Source: Rhodothermales bacterium
GTDB taxonomy: Bacteria > Bacteroidota > Rhodothermia > Rhodothermales > JAHQVL01
Assembly: GCA_041391505.1 (NCBI GenBank)
Contig: JAWKNW010000002.1
Coordinates: 166,897-230,896, forward strand
DNA length: 64,000 nucleotides
Direction: 5' to 3'
In this document: piece after piece, positions 43,751 to 59,846 of the stretch
Layout: the number at the start of each line of letters is the position of its first letter
How positions within the stretch are numbered: position 1 is the stretch's first letter
Position numbers and translations under genes: made by a program
Notes under the pieces: model-generated
Told to the model about the DNA's origin: nothing
The model's input: only the letters and a program-made list of their open reading frames with translations
The model's database searches: none

Positions 43751-43790
43751 GCAAAAAAAACCCGAAGGGTCTTTGAGACCCTTCGGGTTT
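43751..43790 (-). terminator. strong rho-independent terminator (minus-strand orientation), inferred original tRNA-Lys terminator
   Basis: aaacccgaagggtc, tttga, gacccttcgggttt (43758-43790), with 8 A upstream on the plus strand (8 U on the minus strand). It lies directly downstream (in the minus sense) of the 14-nt tRNA 3-prime fragment at 43799-43812. Confidence 0.7.
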
Positions 43791-43798
43791 GAAATGCA

Positions 43799-43812
43799 GT
43801 GCCTCCGCAAGG
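43799..43812. repeat. attL-side direct repeat (copy of the tRNA-Lys 3-prime segment)
   Basis: gtgcctccgcaagg is identical to, and in the same orientation as, 59773-59786 inside tRNA-Lys. Flanking bases are partly similar (cag upstream, ct downstream). Confidence 0.6.
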
Positions 43813-44048
43813 GCTTACCCTGATTTACGCACGTCTGCGCCACTCCACACCTGTCCCGCTGAAACCCTTCGAAATCAAGGGCTTGCGGCAACACATCGCC
43901 TCACAGGATCAAATTTCGAAGGTCAATTCCCCGTAGGCTGCGCTCACATTACAGCCTACATTCTTCCACGCAAATATTTTTGGGAACATCCATTTGTTCG
44001 ACAAGGGAACAAGAAACCAATCCTTATAGAACCGCAGCCTTTGAACTT

Positions 44049-45047
44049 ATGTCGAGATTAACTGCAGAGTACTCAATTGACATCCCCAGTCCCTGCCTGA
44101 TACAGTGGCCGATAGATGAGACGCCTACGATTGACGCAACGATAGACGGCTTCTCTGTACGAATTGTACTGCAACCCGTAAAAGACTGGCGATTGACACA
44201 CAAGGAAGAGAACTACTATGTCACTAGCATTGACTCCCTTGAAATATTCGTTTCGCGCGAAGAAAACGAATCACCACCTCCTTCACGATTGAATGCAAAG
44301 GGAGGAACTGATTTTTCAGACCAATACCCTTTTATCAATGAACGTGCGACTCCTTATCGTGACATCGCTGTAAAGGCTGCCAATCGCCTGTTGAATTTCT
44401 ACAAATATCATCTCCATGCCCCATTGATAGAGCCTATTCCGGAGGGACACAATGGCTTTGCAAACCCTAGATGGTTCATCGATGATGACGAACAGATAGC
44501 TGGTAATAAGGTAACCTTCACAGTCGAATATGTAGCAGGGTTACATGGAGAGTTGAGAACGTATAAATTCAGGCCTGCAGATGAGTCTATTCTTCAGAAG
44601 TACCTGACCAATGTGCCGGACCATAGTCTAGCAGATGAGCTCTTGGCCGATGCGAAATCTGCATGGTTCGAGCACAATTATCGGAGAGCCGTGCTCGAAC
44701 TTGCCATTTGCGTGGAAGTCATGGTGAAGCGGAAATATTTTGAGAAGGCCTCACCAGCGGGAGCAGCATTTGATTACCTAGAGGACAAATCACAGATCAG
44801 AGTGCGTGTGTTGGATCTCATTGATAAAATAGCTTCTGAAGCTTTCAATCGCAGTTTCAAGAATGAGCACAAGAATGAATACAATCATATAGATGAGTTA
44901 TTCAGATGTCGCAACAAGATCGCTCATAGAGGAGAGTTGAAGTTTCGAAATGAAGCTGGTCAAACCGTTGAGGCCGATTCCGACATGGTGGCTCTTTGGT
45001 GGGAAGCTGCCTATTGCTTGAAGGACTGGCTCCATGAGTTATCCTAG
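44049..45047 (+). CDS. HEPN-domain protein (Rx4H), putative RNase; N-terminal ~200 aa unknown
   Basis: The C-terminal helical region reads LADELLADAKSAWFEHNYRRAVLELAICVEVMVKR...IDELFRCRNKIAHRGEL, where RNKIAH fits the HEPN Rx4-6H motif. The ATG at 44049 is preferred. Low GC. Confidence 0.55.
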   Translation: MSRLTAEYSIDIPSPCLIQWPIDETPTIDATIDGFSVRIVLQPVKDWRLTHKEENYYVTSIDSLEIFVSREENESPPPSRLNAKGGTDFSDQYPFINERATPYRDIAVKAANRLLNFYKYHLHAPLIEPIPEGHNGFANPRWFIDDDEQIAGNKVTFTVEYVAGLHGELRTYKFRPADESILQKYLTNVPDHSLADELLADAKSAWFEHNYRRAVLELAICVEVMVKRKYFEKASPAGAAFDYLEDKSQIRVRVLDLIDKIASEAFNRSFKNEHKNEYNHIDELFRCRNKIAHRGELKFRNEAGQTVEADSDMVALWWEAAYCLKDWLHELS

Positions 45048-45263
45048 CATTAAACTGGAGCATGTGGAGGCCATGCATCCGGGGAGGGGGGTACAAATCT
45101 CCAGCACTACCAGCCTCGGGACCGGCGGAGGCAGTCAAATTTTTACGCCGTCAGGTTTCCAGAATCGGTTTTCGCGGCCCAGGGCTCCCCCGTGAATCGC
45201 CGTTTTTCGTGCGGCCAGACGCGATCCACGCGATCCGGGGCCGATTCAAAACCACATTTTTTC

Positions 45264-58017: not shown

Positions 58018-58027
58018 GGGGGCGTCA

Positions 58028-58474
58028 ATGCGAATCGCGATGAACAACCACACCCCGCATACCGACCCTGCTGGCGCCTTCTACGAAGCGATCGCGGACG
58101 TCGTGGTGCGCAAGCTGATGGAGGAGATTGGGCGCGCGAGCCTGGGCGGCGAGCCTACGGATGGCCTGGCGATCGAGAAACTGGGCGGCCGAGGCCTGGA
58201 CCTTATGCGCGCCTACTCCGCAAAGGAAGTAGCCGAGCTACTGGGCACCAGTCGCGTCGAATCCGTCTATGAGATACCAGAGAACGAACTGCCACGCGTG
58301 CGGCGAATCGGGAAGAGCTTTGGGTATCTTGGGATCAACGTACTTTGCTACATGGCCGGCCGGCCGCCGGTCGACATAGACGCGGCCATCGAGGAATACA
58401 GGAAACGTCTCACCGAAGGGCGGGGCAACGTCCTGCCGATGGGGCTCACCGAAGGACTTACCCGGGTGCTGTGA
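58028..58474 (+). CDS. excisionase / AlpA-like HTH DNA-binding protein
   Basis: YSAKEVAELLGTSRVESVYEIPENELPRVRRIGKSFGY is a MerR/excisionase-type HTH. It sits immediately upstream of the integrase with a TGATG stop/start overlap. Confidence 0.55.
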   Translation: MRIAMNNHTPHTDPAGAFYEAIADVVVRKLMEEIGRASLGGEPTDGLAIEKLGGRGLDLMRAYSAKEVAELLGTSRVESVYEIPENELPRVRRIGKSFGYLGINVLCYMAGRPPVDIDAAIEEYRKRLTEGRGNVLPMGLTEGLTRVL

Positions 58475-59694
58475 TGCCGTACAAGCGAGAGGGCTCTCCC
58501 TACTATCAGATCCGCCGTCGTAGGCTCGCGGGCTATGGCGACACCGGTGTGCTCTCCTCCAAGGTGGGGAGCAAGAAGCTGGCGCGCGACATGGAGCGCG
58601 TCCTCGAGGAGCTCGCGCACAAGGCACTGGAGGACGCCTCATGGTATGGCCTGCTTGACGCGGTATGCCGGGAGAAGACGGTGCCGATGCCCGACCTGCT
58701 GAAGGCGCGCAATATCGGGACGCTCGAGGGGCTGAAGCGAAGCCTCACCGATCCCACGCTCACGGAAGCGGTCGCGGCGTATCAGCGCGCGGCGCCGCAG
58801 AACCGATCGGCGATCATTGGCCTGCGCATGCTGATGCGTTACGCGCCGGCCGGGATGCGCCTGGGCGATCTCACATCGAGGACGATCACCAAGCTTTGTA
58901 TCGAGGCGGAGGAGGACGGGCGCAAGCGCAACACGGTCCGGCGATCGATGCTGCGCGGCATCTCGCTCCTCCTGCGCTTTCACATCGGCAACGCGGAGCG
59001 TAATCGGATCTTCGCCGATGTCGTCTTCCACGGGGAGAACGACACGAGGGAAGTGCACCTCACGCCGGCGGAGCTGCGGCGACTATTCACCGCGATGAAG
59101 GAACTGGGATATGCCGAGCTCGGCACGATCGTCCGCACGGCGCTGCTCACCTCGGCCGATCGCGGCGTGCTCCTGGCGGGGCAGAACATGGGGCAGCAGC
59201 TGCGAGGCCTGCGCGTGCGGGACCTCACGATCTATCTCGACTCCCAGAGCGGGGAGTACAGCGGCGAGGTGTTCCTGCACGACACCAAGGCGAAGAACCG
59301 GAGCCGGAGCGTGCCGCTCACCGATAGCTTGTGCCGGGAGCTGCTCGTCTGCTGCAAGGGGAAGGATCCGGACAGTACCGTGTTCGAAATGAAGTATCAG
59401 CAGCTGGACTTCCAGTGGAAGGCGGCGCGGCGCCAGGCGGGCCTGAAGGGCATCCGCTTCAAGGACCTGCGCGCCCAGACCGCGATATACGCCGAGGAGG
59501 CAGGCATCCCGATCACGGTGGCGCAGAAGACGCTCGGACACAGCAACGAGATGATGACGCGTCGCTATCAGCAGCGCGCGGCCGTGCTCAGCATTGACCA
59601 GGCCCAGGCCATCGAGTCCGCGATGTTTGCCGAGGATGAAGAAAACGGCGCGATCGAAAGTAAAAACAAGCGCTCACAACCGGGCCAACAATGA
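58474..59694 (+). CDS. int: tyrosine recombinase / phage integrase
   Basis: 406 aa from the ATG at 58474. The catalytic region includes LLTSADRG, ...FLHDTKAKNRSRSVPL, FKDLRAQTAIYAEEAGI, LGHSNEMMTRRY (R...HxxR...Y pattern). It is adjacent to the tRNA 3-prime end. Confidence 0.85.
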   Translation: MPYKREGSPYYQIRRRRLAGYGDTGVLSSKVGSKKLARDMERVLEELAHKALEDASWYGLLDAVCREKTVPMPDLLKARNIGTLEGLKRSLTDPTLTEAVAAYQRAAPQNRSAIIGLRMLMRYAPAGMRLGDLTSRTITKLCIEAEEDGRKRNTVRRSMLRGISLLLRFHIGNAERNRIFADVVFHGENDTREVHLTPAELRRLFTAMKELGYAELGTIVRTALLTSADRGVLLAGQNMGQQLRGLRVRDLTIYLDSQSGEYSGEVFLHDTKAKNRSRSVPLTDSLCRELLVCCKGKDPDSTVFEMKYQQLDFQWKAARRQAGLKGIRFKDLRAQTAIYAEEAGIPITVAQKTLGHSNEMMTRRYQQRAAVLSIDQAQAIESAMFAEDEENGAIESKNKRSQPGQQ

Positions 59695-59770
59695 CGGAAT
59701 CGACCACAAACAAGAATCCCCGCAACCACATGCATCGCATGGAGTTACGGGGATCATACCGGGCAATCAG

Positions 59771-59846
59771 TGGTGCCTCCGCAAGGACTCGAACCTTGGA
59801 CCCGCTGATTAAGAGTCAGCTGCTCTACCAACTGAGCTACAGAGGC
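59771..59846 (-). tRNA. tRNA-Lys (anticodon CUU), CCA encoded
   Basis: The reverse complement folds by hand: GCCTCTG TA GCTC AGTTGGTA GAGC A GCTGA CTCTTAA TCAGC GGGTC CAAGG TTCGAGT CCTTG CGGAGGC ACCA. It is 76 nt, and all stems pair (one G-U in the acceptor). Confidence 0.9.
59773..59786. repeat. attR-side direct repeat inside the tRNA-Lys 3-prime end
   Basis: gtgcctccgcaagg, identical to 43799-43812. Confidence 0.6.

What the first reader, a model, noticed from the sequence alone, without database searches (positions are those of the whole stretch)
43751..59846. A roughly 16-kb PICI-like phage satellite integrated in tRNA-Lys, with the original tRNA terminator stranded at its far end
Seen:
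- tRNA-Lys(CUU) lies at 59771-59846(-).
- Fourteen nt of its 3-prime end (gtgcctccgcaagg, 59773-59786) recur exactly, in the same orientation, at 43799-43812.
- Immediately beyond that copy (in the minus sense) sits a textbook intrinsic terminator: a 14-bp stem plus 8 U at 43751-43790. No annotated minus-strand gene feeds into it.

The simplest reading is that this was the tRNA terminator before a 16-kb insertion.

The interval carries an integrase and an AlpA/excisionase-like HTH protein next to the tRNA. It also carries XRE and RHH regulators and a 625-aa replication-type protein. Only two virion-related genes are present (HK97 prohead protease, P27 TerS), with no capsid, portal, TerL or tail genes.

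Established knowledge: this combination and size is the hallmark of phage-inducible chromosomal islands and related satellites. Such elements are known hotspots for anti-phage cargo.

Inference: this is a helper-dependent satellite in a high-GC, T9SS-bearing Bacteroidota/Rhodothermota-like host. To my knowledge satellites are essentially uncharacterised in that lineage.
Basis: partly seen in the sequence, partly recalled or inferred. Interest (0 to 1): 0.75.

Follow-up and report, generated by a model that had tools for sequence, protein, structure and literature searches.

The report
Putative phage satellite in tRNA-Lys
A 16-kb mobile island sits in a lysine tRNA gene of a Rhodothermales-like bacterium, with its own integration and replication genes, two borrowed phage head and packaging genes and anti-phage defence cargo; it is most likely a phage-parasitising "satellite", a known kind of element that has not been described in this bacterial group.

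Summary
tRNA-Lys(CUU) lies at 59771-59846(-). Its 3' 14-mer recurs only once in the window, at 43799-43812. A 15-bp-stem/T8 minus-strand terminator sits 8 nt beyond that copy.

The 15,974-bp interval is an intact integrative, replicative element. It carries a tyrosine integrase, an Xis-like HTH protein, a DUF3987 helicase with an iteron-type origin at its 3' end, and a divergent promoter/operator switch. Short motifs are shared by both att arms.

It has a tightly coupled operon of coiled-coil protein, HK97 prohead protease, P27 TerS and a small HExxH protein. The order is not that of phages. No TerL, portal, capsid or tail gene was detected. Cargo is a Shosta system, a PDC-S45 protease and an Rx4H (HEPN-motif) protein.

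No empty site was found. A related Rhodothermales MAG carries the same terminator/14-mer/arm junction. Identity drops from about 95% to about 64% just after the core, as expected at a host/element boundary.

The closest backbone relative lacks TerS and protease. Close TerS relatives occur alone in two other contexts, one of them a clear integrase/primase island, and in a complete HK97-type phage.

Verdict: the integrated element is well supported. Satellite status is probable (about 0.55) but untested. It is a new variant of a known kind, of moderate interest.

The parts
43751..43790 (-). Intrinsic terminator (15-bp stem, 3-nt loop, T8). It is host DNA just outside the element and is the presumed former tRNA-Lys terminator.
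   Evidence: The stem is 100% conserved in the Rhodothermales relative L199.
43799..43812 (.). attL core: a copy of the last 14 nt of tRNA-Lys (T-arm 3' strand, acceptor 3' strand, discriminator, C).
43813..43950 (.). Element-side arm (P' arm). It carries GCGCTCACA (43940) and TTCCCCGTAG (43927), both repeated in the other arm. It is about 64% identical to L199, against about 95% for the terminator plus core.
43980..45047 (+). Low-GC (45%) cargo gene for a 355-aa protein with a C-terminal Rx4H motif (RNKIAH), HEPN-like. The start codon is uncertain.
   Evidence: Weak Pfam HEPN_RiboL-PSP hit, 2.7e-3. The motif was read in the translation.
45261..45938 (+). u248: an all-helical coiled-coil protein and the first gene of the head/packaging-like operon. 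Its stop overlaps the protease start by 8 nt.
   Evidence: - GC3 is 0.85.
- The family is rare: 5 other representatives among 1.84 billion proteins.
- A 43%-identical homologue lies directly upstream of the closest TerS in L194.
- No Pfam, PHROG, PDB or fold match.
45931..46605 (+). HK97-type prohead serine protease (Peptidase_S78).
   Evidence: Pfam 4.7e-48. PHROG_80 1.7e-55. 47-53% identical to the protease of phage L195.
46602..47114 (+). Terminase small subunit, P27 family. Its start overlaps the protease stop (ATGA).
   Evidence: Pfam Terminase_4 2.6e-27. PHROG_83 2.8e-49. Relatives at 57-75% identity.
47138..47584 (+). Small (148-aa) HExxH (HELRH) metallopeptidase-like protein, the last gene of the operon.
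   Evidence: Pfam DUF6782 4.4e-7. The motif was read in the translation.
47568..48610 (-). PadR-family regulator (48242-48610) and a downstream 225-aa protein of unknown function (47568-48245).
   Evidence: Pfam PadR 1e-11. No hit for the 225-aa protein.
48732..49535 (+). Trypsin-like serine protease matching the PADLOC defence candidate PDC-S45, followed by a terminator at 49559-49578.
   Evidence: 1.8e-43.
49629..50943 (-). Shosta anti-phage system: ShosA (DprA-like, 50260-50943) and ShosT (PRTase, 49629-50282). The two genes overlap.
   Evidence: PADLOC ShosA 7.7e-73 and ShosT 1.9e-19. Pfam DNA_processg_A 5e-53 and Pribosyltran 5e-5.
51344..53793 (-). Leftward operon of unknown proteins: u141 (53368-53793), u158 (52895-53371) and u262 (52003-52791). 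It ends at a strong terminator at 51379-51344. u262 is a conserved backbone gene.
   Evidence: - GC3 is 0.86-0.87 for u158 and u262.
- u262 is 54% identical to a gene in L190.
- Terminator.
- The ORF 51249-51899(-) spans that terminator and is doubtful.
53885..53945 (.). Divergent control region. It holds a perfect TTGACA-17-TATAAT promoter on the minus strand (53913-53885) and a 9-bp perfect inverted repeat, CTTGTCAAG-AATTA-CTTGACAAG (53906-53928), that overlaps both -35 boxes.
   Evidence: sequence read.
53963..55297 (+). Start of the rightward operon: Cro/cI-type HTH protein (53963-54253), 258-aa unknown protein (54250-55026) and ribbon-helix-helix protein (55046-55297).
   Evidence: Weak PHROG repressor hits, 2.6e-3. 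Pfam RHH_1 6e-4. Translations.
55418..57295 (+). DUF3987 (SF6-type) replicative helicase, 625 aa, with a C-terminal HTH and no primase domain.
   Evidence: Pfam 4.6e-44. Relatives at 36-61% identity, all in integrase-bearing islands. Helicase activity of the family is reported in PMC11724360.
57070..57240 (.). Origin-like iteron cluster in an AT-rich dip (45-50% GC). GTGGCAAT lies at 57078 and 57150 on the + strand. Inverted copies lie at 57157, 57220 and 57229.
   Evidence: L190 has 5 direct and 6 inverted TTGGCAAAG copies at the homologous position.
57283..58474 (+). 244-aa unknown protein (57283-58017) and a 155-aa Xis/AlpA-like HTH protein (58007-58474). The stop of the latter abuts the integrase start.
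   Evidence: Motif read. NCBIfam MamR-type HTH 1.2e-3. 50% identical to the gene at the same position in L190.
58474..59694 (+). Tyrosine integrase (about 406 aa from the ATG at 58474), ending 77 nt from the tRNA.
   Evidence: Pfam Phage_integrase 1.1e-10. PHROG_1 8.6e-25. 66% identical to the L190 integrase.
59695..59772 (.). tRNA-side arm (P arm), carrying ATCCCCGCAAC (59716) and its inverted copy (59744-59754). A second GCGCTCACA lies at 59670, in the integrase 3' end.
59771..59846 (-). tRNA-Lys(CUU), intact. Its last 14 nt (59773-59786) form the attR core and are supplied by the element.

Best explanation
This is a 15,974-bp integrative, autonomously replicating element inserted by its tyrosine integrase into the 3' end of tRNA-Lys(CUU). 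The element restores the tRNA end, and the tRNA's original terminator is left at the far junction.

It most likely lives as a PICI-like phage satellite. An HK97-type helper phage with a P27-family terminase would lift repression at the divergent promoter/operator (inferred). The rightward operon (HTH, RHH, DUF3987 helicase, Xis-like, Int) would then excise the element and replicate it from the iteron origin at the helicase gene's 3' end (inferred from anatomy).

The element's own TerS would pair with the helper's TerL and direct packaging to element DNA (inferred by analogy with SaPI/PICI TerS). The co-transcribed coiled-coil protein, prohead protease and HExxH protein would act on helper procapsid assembly or maturation (speculative).

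While integrated, the cargo (Shosta, PDC-S45-like protease, Rx4H-motif HEPN-like protein) protects the host against phages.
For: **Integration**
- An exact 14-bp direct repeat of the tRNA 3' end, with chance expectation about 0.04.
- The integrase ends 77 nt from the tRNA.
- A minus-strand terminator lies 8 nt beyond the far copy.
- GCGCTCACA occurs only twice in 64 kb, once at each end of the element. Three of the nine TCCCCGYA copies lie in the two arms.
- In the relative L199 the terminator plus core is about 95% identical, while the adjoining arm is about 64% identical. That is the step expected at a host/element junction.

**Replication**
- A DUF3987 helicase is present.
- Convergent iteron arrays in an AT-rich dip lie at its 3' end, and the same architecture with different iterons is found in L190.

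**Regulatory switch**
- A perfect sigma-70 promoter and a palindromic operator lie between the divergent operons.

**Hijacking module**
- The protease and TerS are bona fide.
- Adjacent genes overlap, and the order is protease then TerS. In 26 IMG/VR phage loci, by contrast, TerS lies 3-8 kb upstream of the protease.
- No TerL, portal, MCP or tail is found, either by Pfam/PHROG on the 20 or so candidate ORFs scanned or by tblastn of a related phage's head and tail genes against the whole window.
- A complete phage (L195) carries a 59%-identical TerS and a 53%-identical protease in canonical order. This shows the candidate helper type.
- Lone close TerS relatives recur. In L194, the u248 homologue is followed by TerS and then by stops in all frames. 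In L196-198 the order is int, HTH_17, PrimPol, TIR-NLR, TerS, TIR-NLR.

**Fit to the PICI core list**
- Integrase, regulator, replication module and terS are all present, and a serine protease is occasionally found in PICI (PMC10085698).
- DUF3987 is the replication marker of PICMI satellites (PMC10803314).

**Cargo**
- Shosta at 7.7e-73 and 1.9e-19, and PDC-S45 at 1.8e-43.
Against: - There is no empty site, excised circle or virion read, so mobility and helper dependence are untested.
- The closest backbone relative (L190: Int 66%, helicase 53%, Xis-like 50%, u262 54%) has no TerS or protease. The packaging module may therefore be a recent capture rather than a family trait.
- No relatives of the integrase, helicase, TerS or u248, and no attL/attP junction 18-mer, were found in IMG/VR.
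- No primase domain is present, and no capsid-size protein is recognisable.
- The regulator, RHH and Xis assignments rest on weak hits.
- The related MAG has the same attL-type junction but neither tRNA nor integrase in the 20.7 kb that could be read. It also has an unexplained 118-nt HAD fragment on the inner side. The junction could therefore be old and the element fixed.
- No helper prophage lies in the 64-kb window.
Confidence: 0.55

Rival explanations
1. This is an integrative genomic or defence island that is not a satellite. It integrates, excises and perhaps replicates through Int, Xis and the DUF3987 helicase. It spreads by other means (conjugative mobilisation, transformation, generalised transduction) or is now fixed. 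The u248-protease-TerS-HExxH block is captured phage DNA, possibly used as an anti-phage interference or decoy module rather than for the island's own packaging.
For: - The closest backbone relative, L190, lacks TerS and protease and carries other cargo (TIR_2, YbjQ). Other DUF3987 relatives (L187-L193) also show none.
- The attL-type junction is shared with a related MAG, so the insertion may be old.
- Nothing related was found in IMG/VR.
- The RHH protein has a faint NikA-like hit, 9e-3.
- From memory: DUF3987/primase plus HTH_17 plus integrase is also the backbone of Bacteroides NBU-type mobilisable elements, which use a 14-bp core in tRNA genes.
Against: - No relaxase or coupling-protein domain was found in any ORF.
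- TerS is intact, is translationally coupled to its neighbours, and has host-like GC3 of 0.84-0.88. This argues for selection on function.
- Lone TerS recurs in other integrase/primase islands. That is the PICI signature.
Confidence: 0.28
2. This is a degraded prophage remnant. An HK97-type temperate phage integrated in tRNA-Lys and lost TerL, portal, capsid, tail and lysis genes by deletion, and defence genes accumulated in their place.
For: The protease and TerS are typical HK97/P27-type phage genes. The island has integrase and repressor-like genes.
Against: - The order protease then TerS, with overlapping stop and start codons, cannot arise by simple deletion from the canonical TerS-TerL-portal-protease-MCP order seen in 26 phage loci and in L195.
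- No pseudogene fragments of TerL, portal, MCP or tail appear in any frame.
- The replication module (DUF3987) is essentially absent from sequenced phages. It gave 4 weak hits among 50,697 records. The one examined (L208) is a bacterial chromosomal fragment; the other three are unannotated 4-6-kb virome contigs that were not examined.
- All backbone ORFs are intact.
Confidence: 0.07
3. The 14-mer is not a recombination scar. The roughly 195-nt unit at 43755-43950 (minus strand, ending in the terminator) is a conserved small-RNA or leader element that happens to share 14 nt with tRNA-Lys. The true island boundary lies elsewhere, for example covering the whole low-GC block at 42.0-45.05 kb.
For: - The unit is conserved as a block in L199-L201 with a perfectly conserved terminator stem, and no tRNA lies nearby there.
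- It folds well, with z = -4.7.
- RNAalifold finds 7 pairs changed on both sides.
- Low-GC defence genes lie on both sides of it.
Against: - The z-score is dominated by the terminator hairpin, and two sequences give no statistical power.
- There is no Rfam match.
- A chance exact 14-mer of the tRNA 3' end, in the right orientation, 16 kb downstream of the tRNA and next to an integrase, has a probability of about 1e-4.
- Motifs are shared between this arm and the tRNA-side arm.
- Identity steps from about 95% to about 64% right after the core.
Confidence: 0.08

Closest known systems
PICI: phage-inducible chromosomal islands, such as SaPIs and EcCICFT073-type elements (core list from PMC10085698)
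   Same: - About 16 kb and site-specifically integrated.
- Integrase at one end and a divergent regulatory switch.
- Its own replication protein and origin.
- Its own TerS, with no TerL, portal, capsid, tail or lysis genes.
- Accessory and defence cargo.
- A serine protease is occasionally present in PICI.
   Different: - The replication protein is a DUF3987 helicase without a primase domain, not a Pri-Rep homologue.
- No recognisable capsid-morphogenesis (Cpm/Ppi/Rpp) homologue.
- TerS sits in an operon with a prohead protease, a rare coiled-coil protein and an HExxH protein.
- The host phylum is Rhodothermota.
- Induction by a helper has not been shown.
cfPICI (capsid-forming PICI)
   Same: Carries an HK97-type prohead protease and TerS next to a PICI-like int/regulator/replication module.
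   Different: Lacks the defining capsid, portal, head-tail adaptor/connector and TerL genes.
PICMI (Vibrionaceae minimalist satellites, PMC10803314)
   Same: Integrase, an AlpA-type protein and a DUF3987-family replication protein. A small gene overlaps the integrase start.
   Different: - PICMIs are about 6 genes, integrate in fis, and carry no TerS or capsid-related genes.
- This element is 16 kb, integrates in tRNA-Lys, and carries TerS and a protease.
VEIMEs: marine virion-encapsidated integrative mobile elements (PMC9618062)
   Same: Environmental satellite-like islands with tyrosine integrases, primase/helicases, AlpA, TerS homologues closest to co-occurring phages, HNH or serine proteases, and defence genes. 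They have been reported integrated in Flavobacteria and Verrucomicrobia.
   Different: No sequence relationship was tested. VEIMEs were defined by physical presence in virions, which is unknown here.
NBU1/NBU2-type mobilisable elements of Bacteroides (recalled from memory, not tested)
   Same: An FCB-group host, a tyrosine integrase targeting the 3' end of a tRNA gene with a short (14-bp) core, a primase/DUF3987-type protein and an HTH_17-type excision protein.
   Different: NBU elements carry a relaxase and oriT and depend on conjugative helpers. No relaxase is detectable here, and a TerS is present instead.

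Membership tests
PICI | Integrase at one end; site-specific chromosomal integration | tested here: met
   Phage_integrase 1.1e-10 and PHROG_1 8.6e-25. 14-bp att repeat in tRNA-Lys.
PICI | Regulation module (alpA, merR or stl homologue) | tested here: inconclusive
   A divergent promoter with a palindromic operator is present. The HTH protein at 53963-54253 has only weak repressor hits, 2.6e-3. The Xis/AlpA-like u155 has only a 1.2e-3 HTH hit.
PICI | Primase-replicase module with its own origin | tested here: inconclusive
   A DUF3987 helicase at 4.6e-44 and an adjacent iteron origin are present. No primase domain was found. It is not homologous to PICI Pri-Rep as far as tested.
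PICI | Small terminase subunit of its own | tested here: met
   Terminase_4 2.6e-27 and PHROG_83 2.8e-49.
PICI | Capsid morphogenesis gene (optional; absent in many bona fide PICI) | tested here: inconclusive
   No homologue is recognised. The candidates (u248 coiled-coil protein, S78 protease, HExxH protein) are co-transcribed with terS but have no proven role.
PICI | Absence of tail, holin, portal and head-tail connector genes (the 'forbidden' components) | tested here: met
   No such Pfam or PHROG hits in any ORF scanned. tblastn with portal, MCP, connector and tail proteins of phage L195 finds only the protease. The SatelliteFinder profiles themselves were not available.
PICI | Induction, excision, replication and packaging triggered by a helper phage | not testable with these tools
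   This requires experiments or virome and long-read data from the source organism.
cfPICI | Own major capsid protein, portal, head-tail adaptor/connector and TerL | tested here: not met
   None detected.
PICMI | Integrase, AlpA, DUF3987/DUF5906 primase and integration in fis; minimal gene set of about 6 genes | tested here: not met
   DUF3987 is present. However, integration is in tRNA-Lys, the size is 16 kb, and TerS and a protease are present.
P4-like satellites | psu-delta-sid operon, epsilon and alpha primase-helicase | not tested
   No dedicated profiles were available. No PHROG or Pfam hit suggests these genes.
Shosta defence system (cargo) | Adjacent ShosA (DprA-like) and ShosT (PRTase) genes | tested here: met
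   PADLOC ShosA 7.7e-73 and ShosT 1.9e-19. The genes overlap on the same strand at 49629-50943. Pfam DNA_processg_A and Pribosyltran.
Integrative mobilisable element (IME/NBU-type) | Relaxase (MOB) gene and oriT | tested here: not met
   No relaxase domain was found in any ORF with Pfam or NCBIfam. There is only a faint NikA-like RHH hit, 9e-3.

The most novel reading that the evidence does not exclude
The tightly coupled operon of coiled-coil u248, prohead protease, P27 TerS and HExxH protein is a new kind of hijacking module. In this reading the satellite brings its own maturation protease and a scaffold-like protein to re-programme assembly and maturation of the helper's HK97-type procapsids, while its TerS redirects packaging. 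It would define a new satellite family in Rhodothermota whose integration and replication backbone also circulates without the module.
Probability: 0.2. Interest if true: 0.7.

Novelty: new variant of a known kind. Interest (0 to 1): 0.45.

Why it matters
- Systematic searches have found satellites almost only in Proteobacteria, Firmicutes and some Actinobacteria (PMC10085698). Environmental virion surveys suggest many more exist (PMC9618062).
- A concrete, intact candidate in Rhodothermota would extend the satellite concept to a poorly studied phylum. It has defined att sites, a candidate origin and operator, and a candidate helper type: an HK97-like phage with a P27 TerS.
- It would give a testable case of a satellite that carries a prohead protease but no capsid gene.
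- It also shows Shosta and other defence genes riding on such an element.
- If it is not a satellite, it is an ordinary tRNA-integrated defence island.

Tried and rejected
- **Empty-site search.** It returned only about 50-55%-identical proteobacterial amidases with no synteny.
- **Left-flank search.** Homologues of the left-flank hydrolase led to syntenic Rhodothermales contigs (L081, L199-L207). None contains tRNA-Lys. The 11.7 kb of contig Ga0163144_10001471 beyond L199 could not be fetched because look-ups were exhausted.
- **Exact look-up** of the DUF3987 protein found no record.
- **The metagenome scan** with the DUF3987 protein gave only 25-31%-identical rumen or gut relatives on short contigs.
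- **IMG/VR scans** for the DUF3987 protein, TerS, u248, the integrase and the attL/attP 18-mer all returned nothing. The protease scan returned only generic HK97 phages.
- **Function of u248 and u262.** Pfam, PHROG, NCBIfam, a PDB profile search, single-sequence AlphaFold (pLDDT 66 and 58) and Foldseek gave nothing usable.
- **u258 as a split-off primase domain.** There is no similarity to the N-terminal extensions of the longer relatives.
- **GenBank 'phage' hits to DUF3987.** The one examined (MT837259.1) is a bacterial chromosomal fragment.
- **Further tRNA-end copies** that would mark tandem islands to the left: none was better than 11 of 14.
- **The sRNA reading** of the conserved junction unit is inconclusive with two sequences.

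Full report
**1. The observation**

ARAGORN finds a single tRNA in the window, tRNA-Lys(CTT) at 59771-59846 on the minus strand. Rfam agrees at 72.5 bits. The 14-mer GTGCCTCCGCAAGG occurs twice in 64 kb, at 43799-43812 and 59773-59786, in the same orientation. About 0.04 matches are expected even when one mismatch is allowed. The identity does not extend further into the tRNA.

On the tRNA strand the repeat covers the end of the T arm, the 3' acceptor strand, the discriminator base and one C. The copy at the tRNA continues with CCA. The far copy continues with TGCATTTC and then, 8 nt on, a hairpin with a 15-bp stem, a 3-nt loop and T8. On the plus strand the hairpin is followed only by TTTG, so it is a minus-strand terminator.

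**2. What lies between the repeats**

The interval is 15,974 bp when one core copy is counted. Host DNA is 65-70% GC. The interval is a mosaic of 45-53% GC cargo and 56-68% GC backbone. Frames were chosen by codon-position GC and by family searches.

From the tRNA inward, the backbone reads as follows.
- A tyrosine integrase, most likely starting at the ATG at 58474 and ending 77 nt from the tRNA.
- An abutting 155-aa protein whose C-terminal half reads like an excisionase/AlpA-type HTH. Only a weak profile hit supports this, but it is 50% identical to the gene at the same position in the relative L190.
- A 244-aa protein of unknown function.
- A 625-aa DUF3987 protein (4.6e-44).
- A ribbon-helix-helix protein (6e-4).
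- A 258-aa protein of unknown function.
- A 96-aa Cro/cI-like HTH protein (weak hits).

DUF3987 proteins are 5'-3' helicases that form the replication machinery of integrative elements (PMC11724360). They also serve as the replication marker of PICMI satellites (PMC10803314).

**3. Origin and switch**

The last 230 nt of the helicase gene fall to 45-50% GC. They carry GTGGCAAT at 57078 and 57150 on the plus strand, then inverted copies at 57157, 57220 and 57229. Five of the six [GT][TC]GGCAA[AT]A matches in the whole window lie here. At the homologous position, the L190 relative has five direct and six inverted copies of a different iteron, TTGGCAAAG. Convergent iteron arrays that co-vary with the replication protein are what an origin looks like. 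I infer an origin inside the 3' end of the helicase gene.

The rightward operon and a leftward operon (u141, u158, u262, ending at a strong terminator at 51379-51344) are separated by a control region. It holds a perfect TTGACA-17-TATAAT promoter and a 9-bp perfect palindrome, CTTGTCAAG-N5-CTTGACAAG, across both -35 boxes. This is a repressor-operator switch by anatomy.

**4. The phage-derived genes**

Four plus-strand genes are tightly packed, the first three with overlapping stop and start codons.
- A roughly 225-aa all-helical coiled-coil protein, u248.
- An HK97-type prohead protease (Peptidase_S78 4.7e-48; PHROG_80 1.7e-55).
- A P27-family TerS (Terminase_4 2.6e-27; PHROG_83 2.8e-49).
- A 148-aa HExxH protein (DUF6782 4.4e-7), which starts 23 nt after the TerS stop.

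All have host-like GC3 of 0.84-0.88 where measured.

In 26 IMG/VR phage loci that contain relatives of both genes, TerS lies 3-8 kb upstream of the protease. The complete phage L195 shows TerS-TerL-portal-protease-MCP-connectors-tail. Here the order is reversed and the intervening genes are absent. A tblastn search of L195's TerL, portal, MCP, connector and tail proteins against the whole window finds only the protease. No ORF in the interval hits any structural or lysis family. A simple deletion of a prophage cannot produce this arrangement.

**5. Cargo**

- ShosA (7.7e-73) and ShosT (1.9e-19) form a Shosta system.
- A trypsin-like protease matches the defence candidate PDC-S45 (1.8e-43).
- A PadR regulator has a downstream gene of unknown function.
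- Next to attL, a low-GC 355-aa protein carries a C-terminal Rx4H motif and looks HEPN-like.

**6. Relatives of the backbone**

The helicase has few relatives: 9 proteins at E of 1e-10 or better among 5.8 billion. All the contexts I could read are integrase-bearing islands.

The closest, L190, shares the integrase (66%), the Xis-like protein (50%), the helicase (53%) and u262 (54%) in the same order. It carries TIR_2 and YbjQ-type cargo and has no TerS or protease. The integration and replication backbone is therefore a family of its own, and the packaging module is not a constant part of it.

**7. Relatives of the packaging module**

The u248 family is tiny, with 5 other representatives among 1.84 billion proteins. 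No function could be assigned to it.

The closest TerS (75%, L194) is directly preceded by a u248 homologue (43%). It is followed by 147 nt with stops in all three frames, so no TerL follows. The next informative TerS relatives are these.
- A complete HK97-type phage (L195: TerS 59%, protease 53%).
- An island with integrase, HTH_17, PrimPol and a lone TerS (57%) between two giant TIR-NLR-type genes (L196-198).

Lone close relatives of this TerS in integrase/primase islands with defence cargo are the pattern described for PICI-type satellites. That TerS and protease are both closest to one phage type points to the likely helper. P27 TerS genes fused to HNH also appear among the hits (P0136). 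This fits the known HNH/P27 packaging association, which I recall from established knowledge; Kala et al. 2014 is cited in PMC9618062.

**8. The junction in relatives**

The host is Rhodothermales-like. The closest cluster of the flanking DUF1080 hydrolase (83% identity) is named Rhodothermales. Contigs L199-L204 are syntenic with window 25-41.9 kb, including the T9SS-tailed Ig-repeat protein. None contains tRNA-Lys, so no empty site was found.

Unexpectedly, L199-L201 contain a 195-nt match to window 43755-43948, covering the terminator, the spacer, the 14-mer and the adjoining inner arm.
- The terminator-to-core part is about 95% identical (3 mismatches in about 63 nt), and the 14-mer and the following GGCTT are identical.
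- From there inward, identity falls to about 64% (49 mismatches in 136 nt, with no codon periodicity).
- To the left of the terminator there is no homology. The window has a low-GC pentapeptide-TIR gene there, and the relatives have HTH_3/Peptidase_M78, an HsdM fragment and BrnT.

The step in identity just after the core is what a host/element boundary predicts. It suggests that a related element occupies the same site in the relative.

Two motifs of the inner arm are conserved in L199 and recur at the tRNA-side end of the window element.
- GCGCTCACA occurs only twice in 64 kb, at 43940 and 59670.
- TCCCCGYA occurs 9 times in the window, 3 of them in the two arms.

These are candidate arm-type integrase sites. 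The motifs were chosen after looking, so the enrichment is suggestive rather than a formal test.

Against this reading, the inner side in L199 shows a 76-aa gene, a 118-nt duplicate of the HAD gene's 3' end and a TIR-CHAT-TPR gene that runs off the locus. Nothing there resembles the window element. I could not read the remaining 11.7 kb of that contig. A minor rival is that the 195-nt unit is a small RNA. It could not be excluded with two sequences.

**9. Mechanism**

Shown by sequence:
- a tRNA-integrated element with intact recombination, replication and regulatory parts;
- a TerS-containing operon in non-phage order;
- defence cargo.

Inferred:
- the integrase and Xis-like protein excise the element at the 14-bp core;
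- the helicase fires the iteron origin;
- the switch is flipped by a helper phage;
- the element's TerS recruits the helper's TerL to package element DNA into helper capsids, as in SaPIs and PICIs.

Speculative: u248, the protease and the HExxH protein modify helper procapsid assembly or maturation.

I put the integrated mobile element at about 0.85 and the satellite lifestyle at about 0.55.

**10. Comparison and novelty**

By function the element meets the PICI core list of integrase, regulator, replication module and terS. It has no forbidden components, and a serine protease is a known occasional extra (PMC10085698). Its replication protein, however, is of the PICMI/NBU type rather than Pri-Rep, and no known capsid-morphogenesis gene is present.

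It fails the defining features of cfPICI (no capsid, portal, connectors or TerL) and of PICMI (fis target, minimal size).

Systematic surveys found satellites almost only in Proteobacteria, Firmicutes and Actinobacteria (PMC10085698). Marine virion surveys reported satellite-like elements integrated in Flavobacteria and Verrucomicrobia (PMC9618062). In the literature I could search, I found nothing for Rhodothermota.

I rate it a new variant of a known kind, of moderate interest, pending any evidence of helper-dependent packaging.

Noticed in passing
window 60387-60872 and 61003-61106: 25.5 tandem copies of a 19-nt unit (TGCCGGACTCGGGGAGGTT, 85% matches), followed by 4.3 copies of a 24-nt unit. 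They lie in the non-coding space between a small lipoprotein-like gene (60026-60364) and the amidase gene, just to the right of tRNA-Lys. The period is not a multiple of 3.
   Followed up: partly
window 41961-43750: A low-GC pentapeptide-repeat/TIR gene (42501-43556; TIR_2 1.2e-21; PDC-S66/ThsB-like) lies between the HAD gene and the stranded terminator, outside the att-bounded element. Rhodothermales relatives carry different genes at this spot (HTH_3/Peptidase_M78, an HsdM fragment, BrnT), so it is a separate variable defence islet.
   Followed up: partly
window 38757-40316: A low-GC (44%) pentapeptide-repeat gene, followed by a pair of 46-nt inverted repeats (40069-40114 / 40220-40265), is an insertion relative to the relatives L081 and L199. 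In those, the DUF1080 hydrolase directly abuts the neighbouring gene.
   Followed up: partly
L199 1431-1544 (and L201 1-107): A 118-nt duplicate of the 3' end of the HAD hydrolase gene lies on the inner side of the attL-like junction in the related MAG, in the same orientation as the full gene 6 kb away. This is unexplained. Several assemblies break at this repeat.
   Followed up: no
L196/L197 1-15000: Another lone-TerS island: integrase, HTH_17, a 910-aa PrimPol, a 1495-aa TIR-nSTAND-WD40 protein, a P27 TerS (57% identical to the window's), and a 1377-aa LRR-Roc-COR-TIR protein. It looks like a second satellite-like family with NLR-type defence cargo.
   Followed up: no
L190 and L195 (both from ENA assembly ERZ25072999): The closest backbone relative of the island (L190, without TerS) and the HK97-type phage with the related TerS and protease (L195) come from the same metagenome assembly.
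   Followed up: no
L208 (GenBank MT837259.1, 'Bacteriophage sp.'): This unverified 12-kb 'phage' record is a bacterial chromosomal fragment. It carries capsule glycosyltransferases, a Mur ligase fragment and a BT4734/PriCT/DUF3987 primase-helicase.
   Followed up: yes
window 51249-51899 (-): The 216-aa ORF spans a strong minus-strand terminator (51379-51344), so it is probably not a real gene in full. The true end of the leftward operon and the Shosta promoter region (50944-51340) were not resolved.
   Followed up: no
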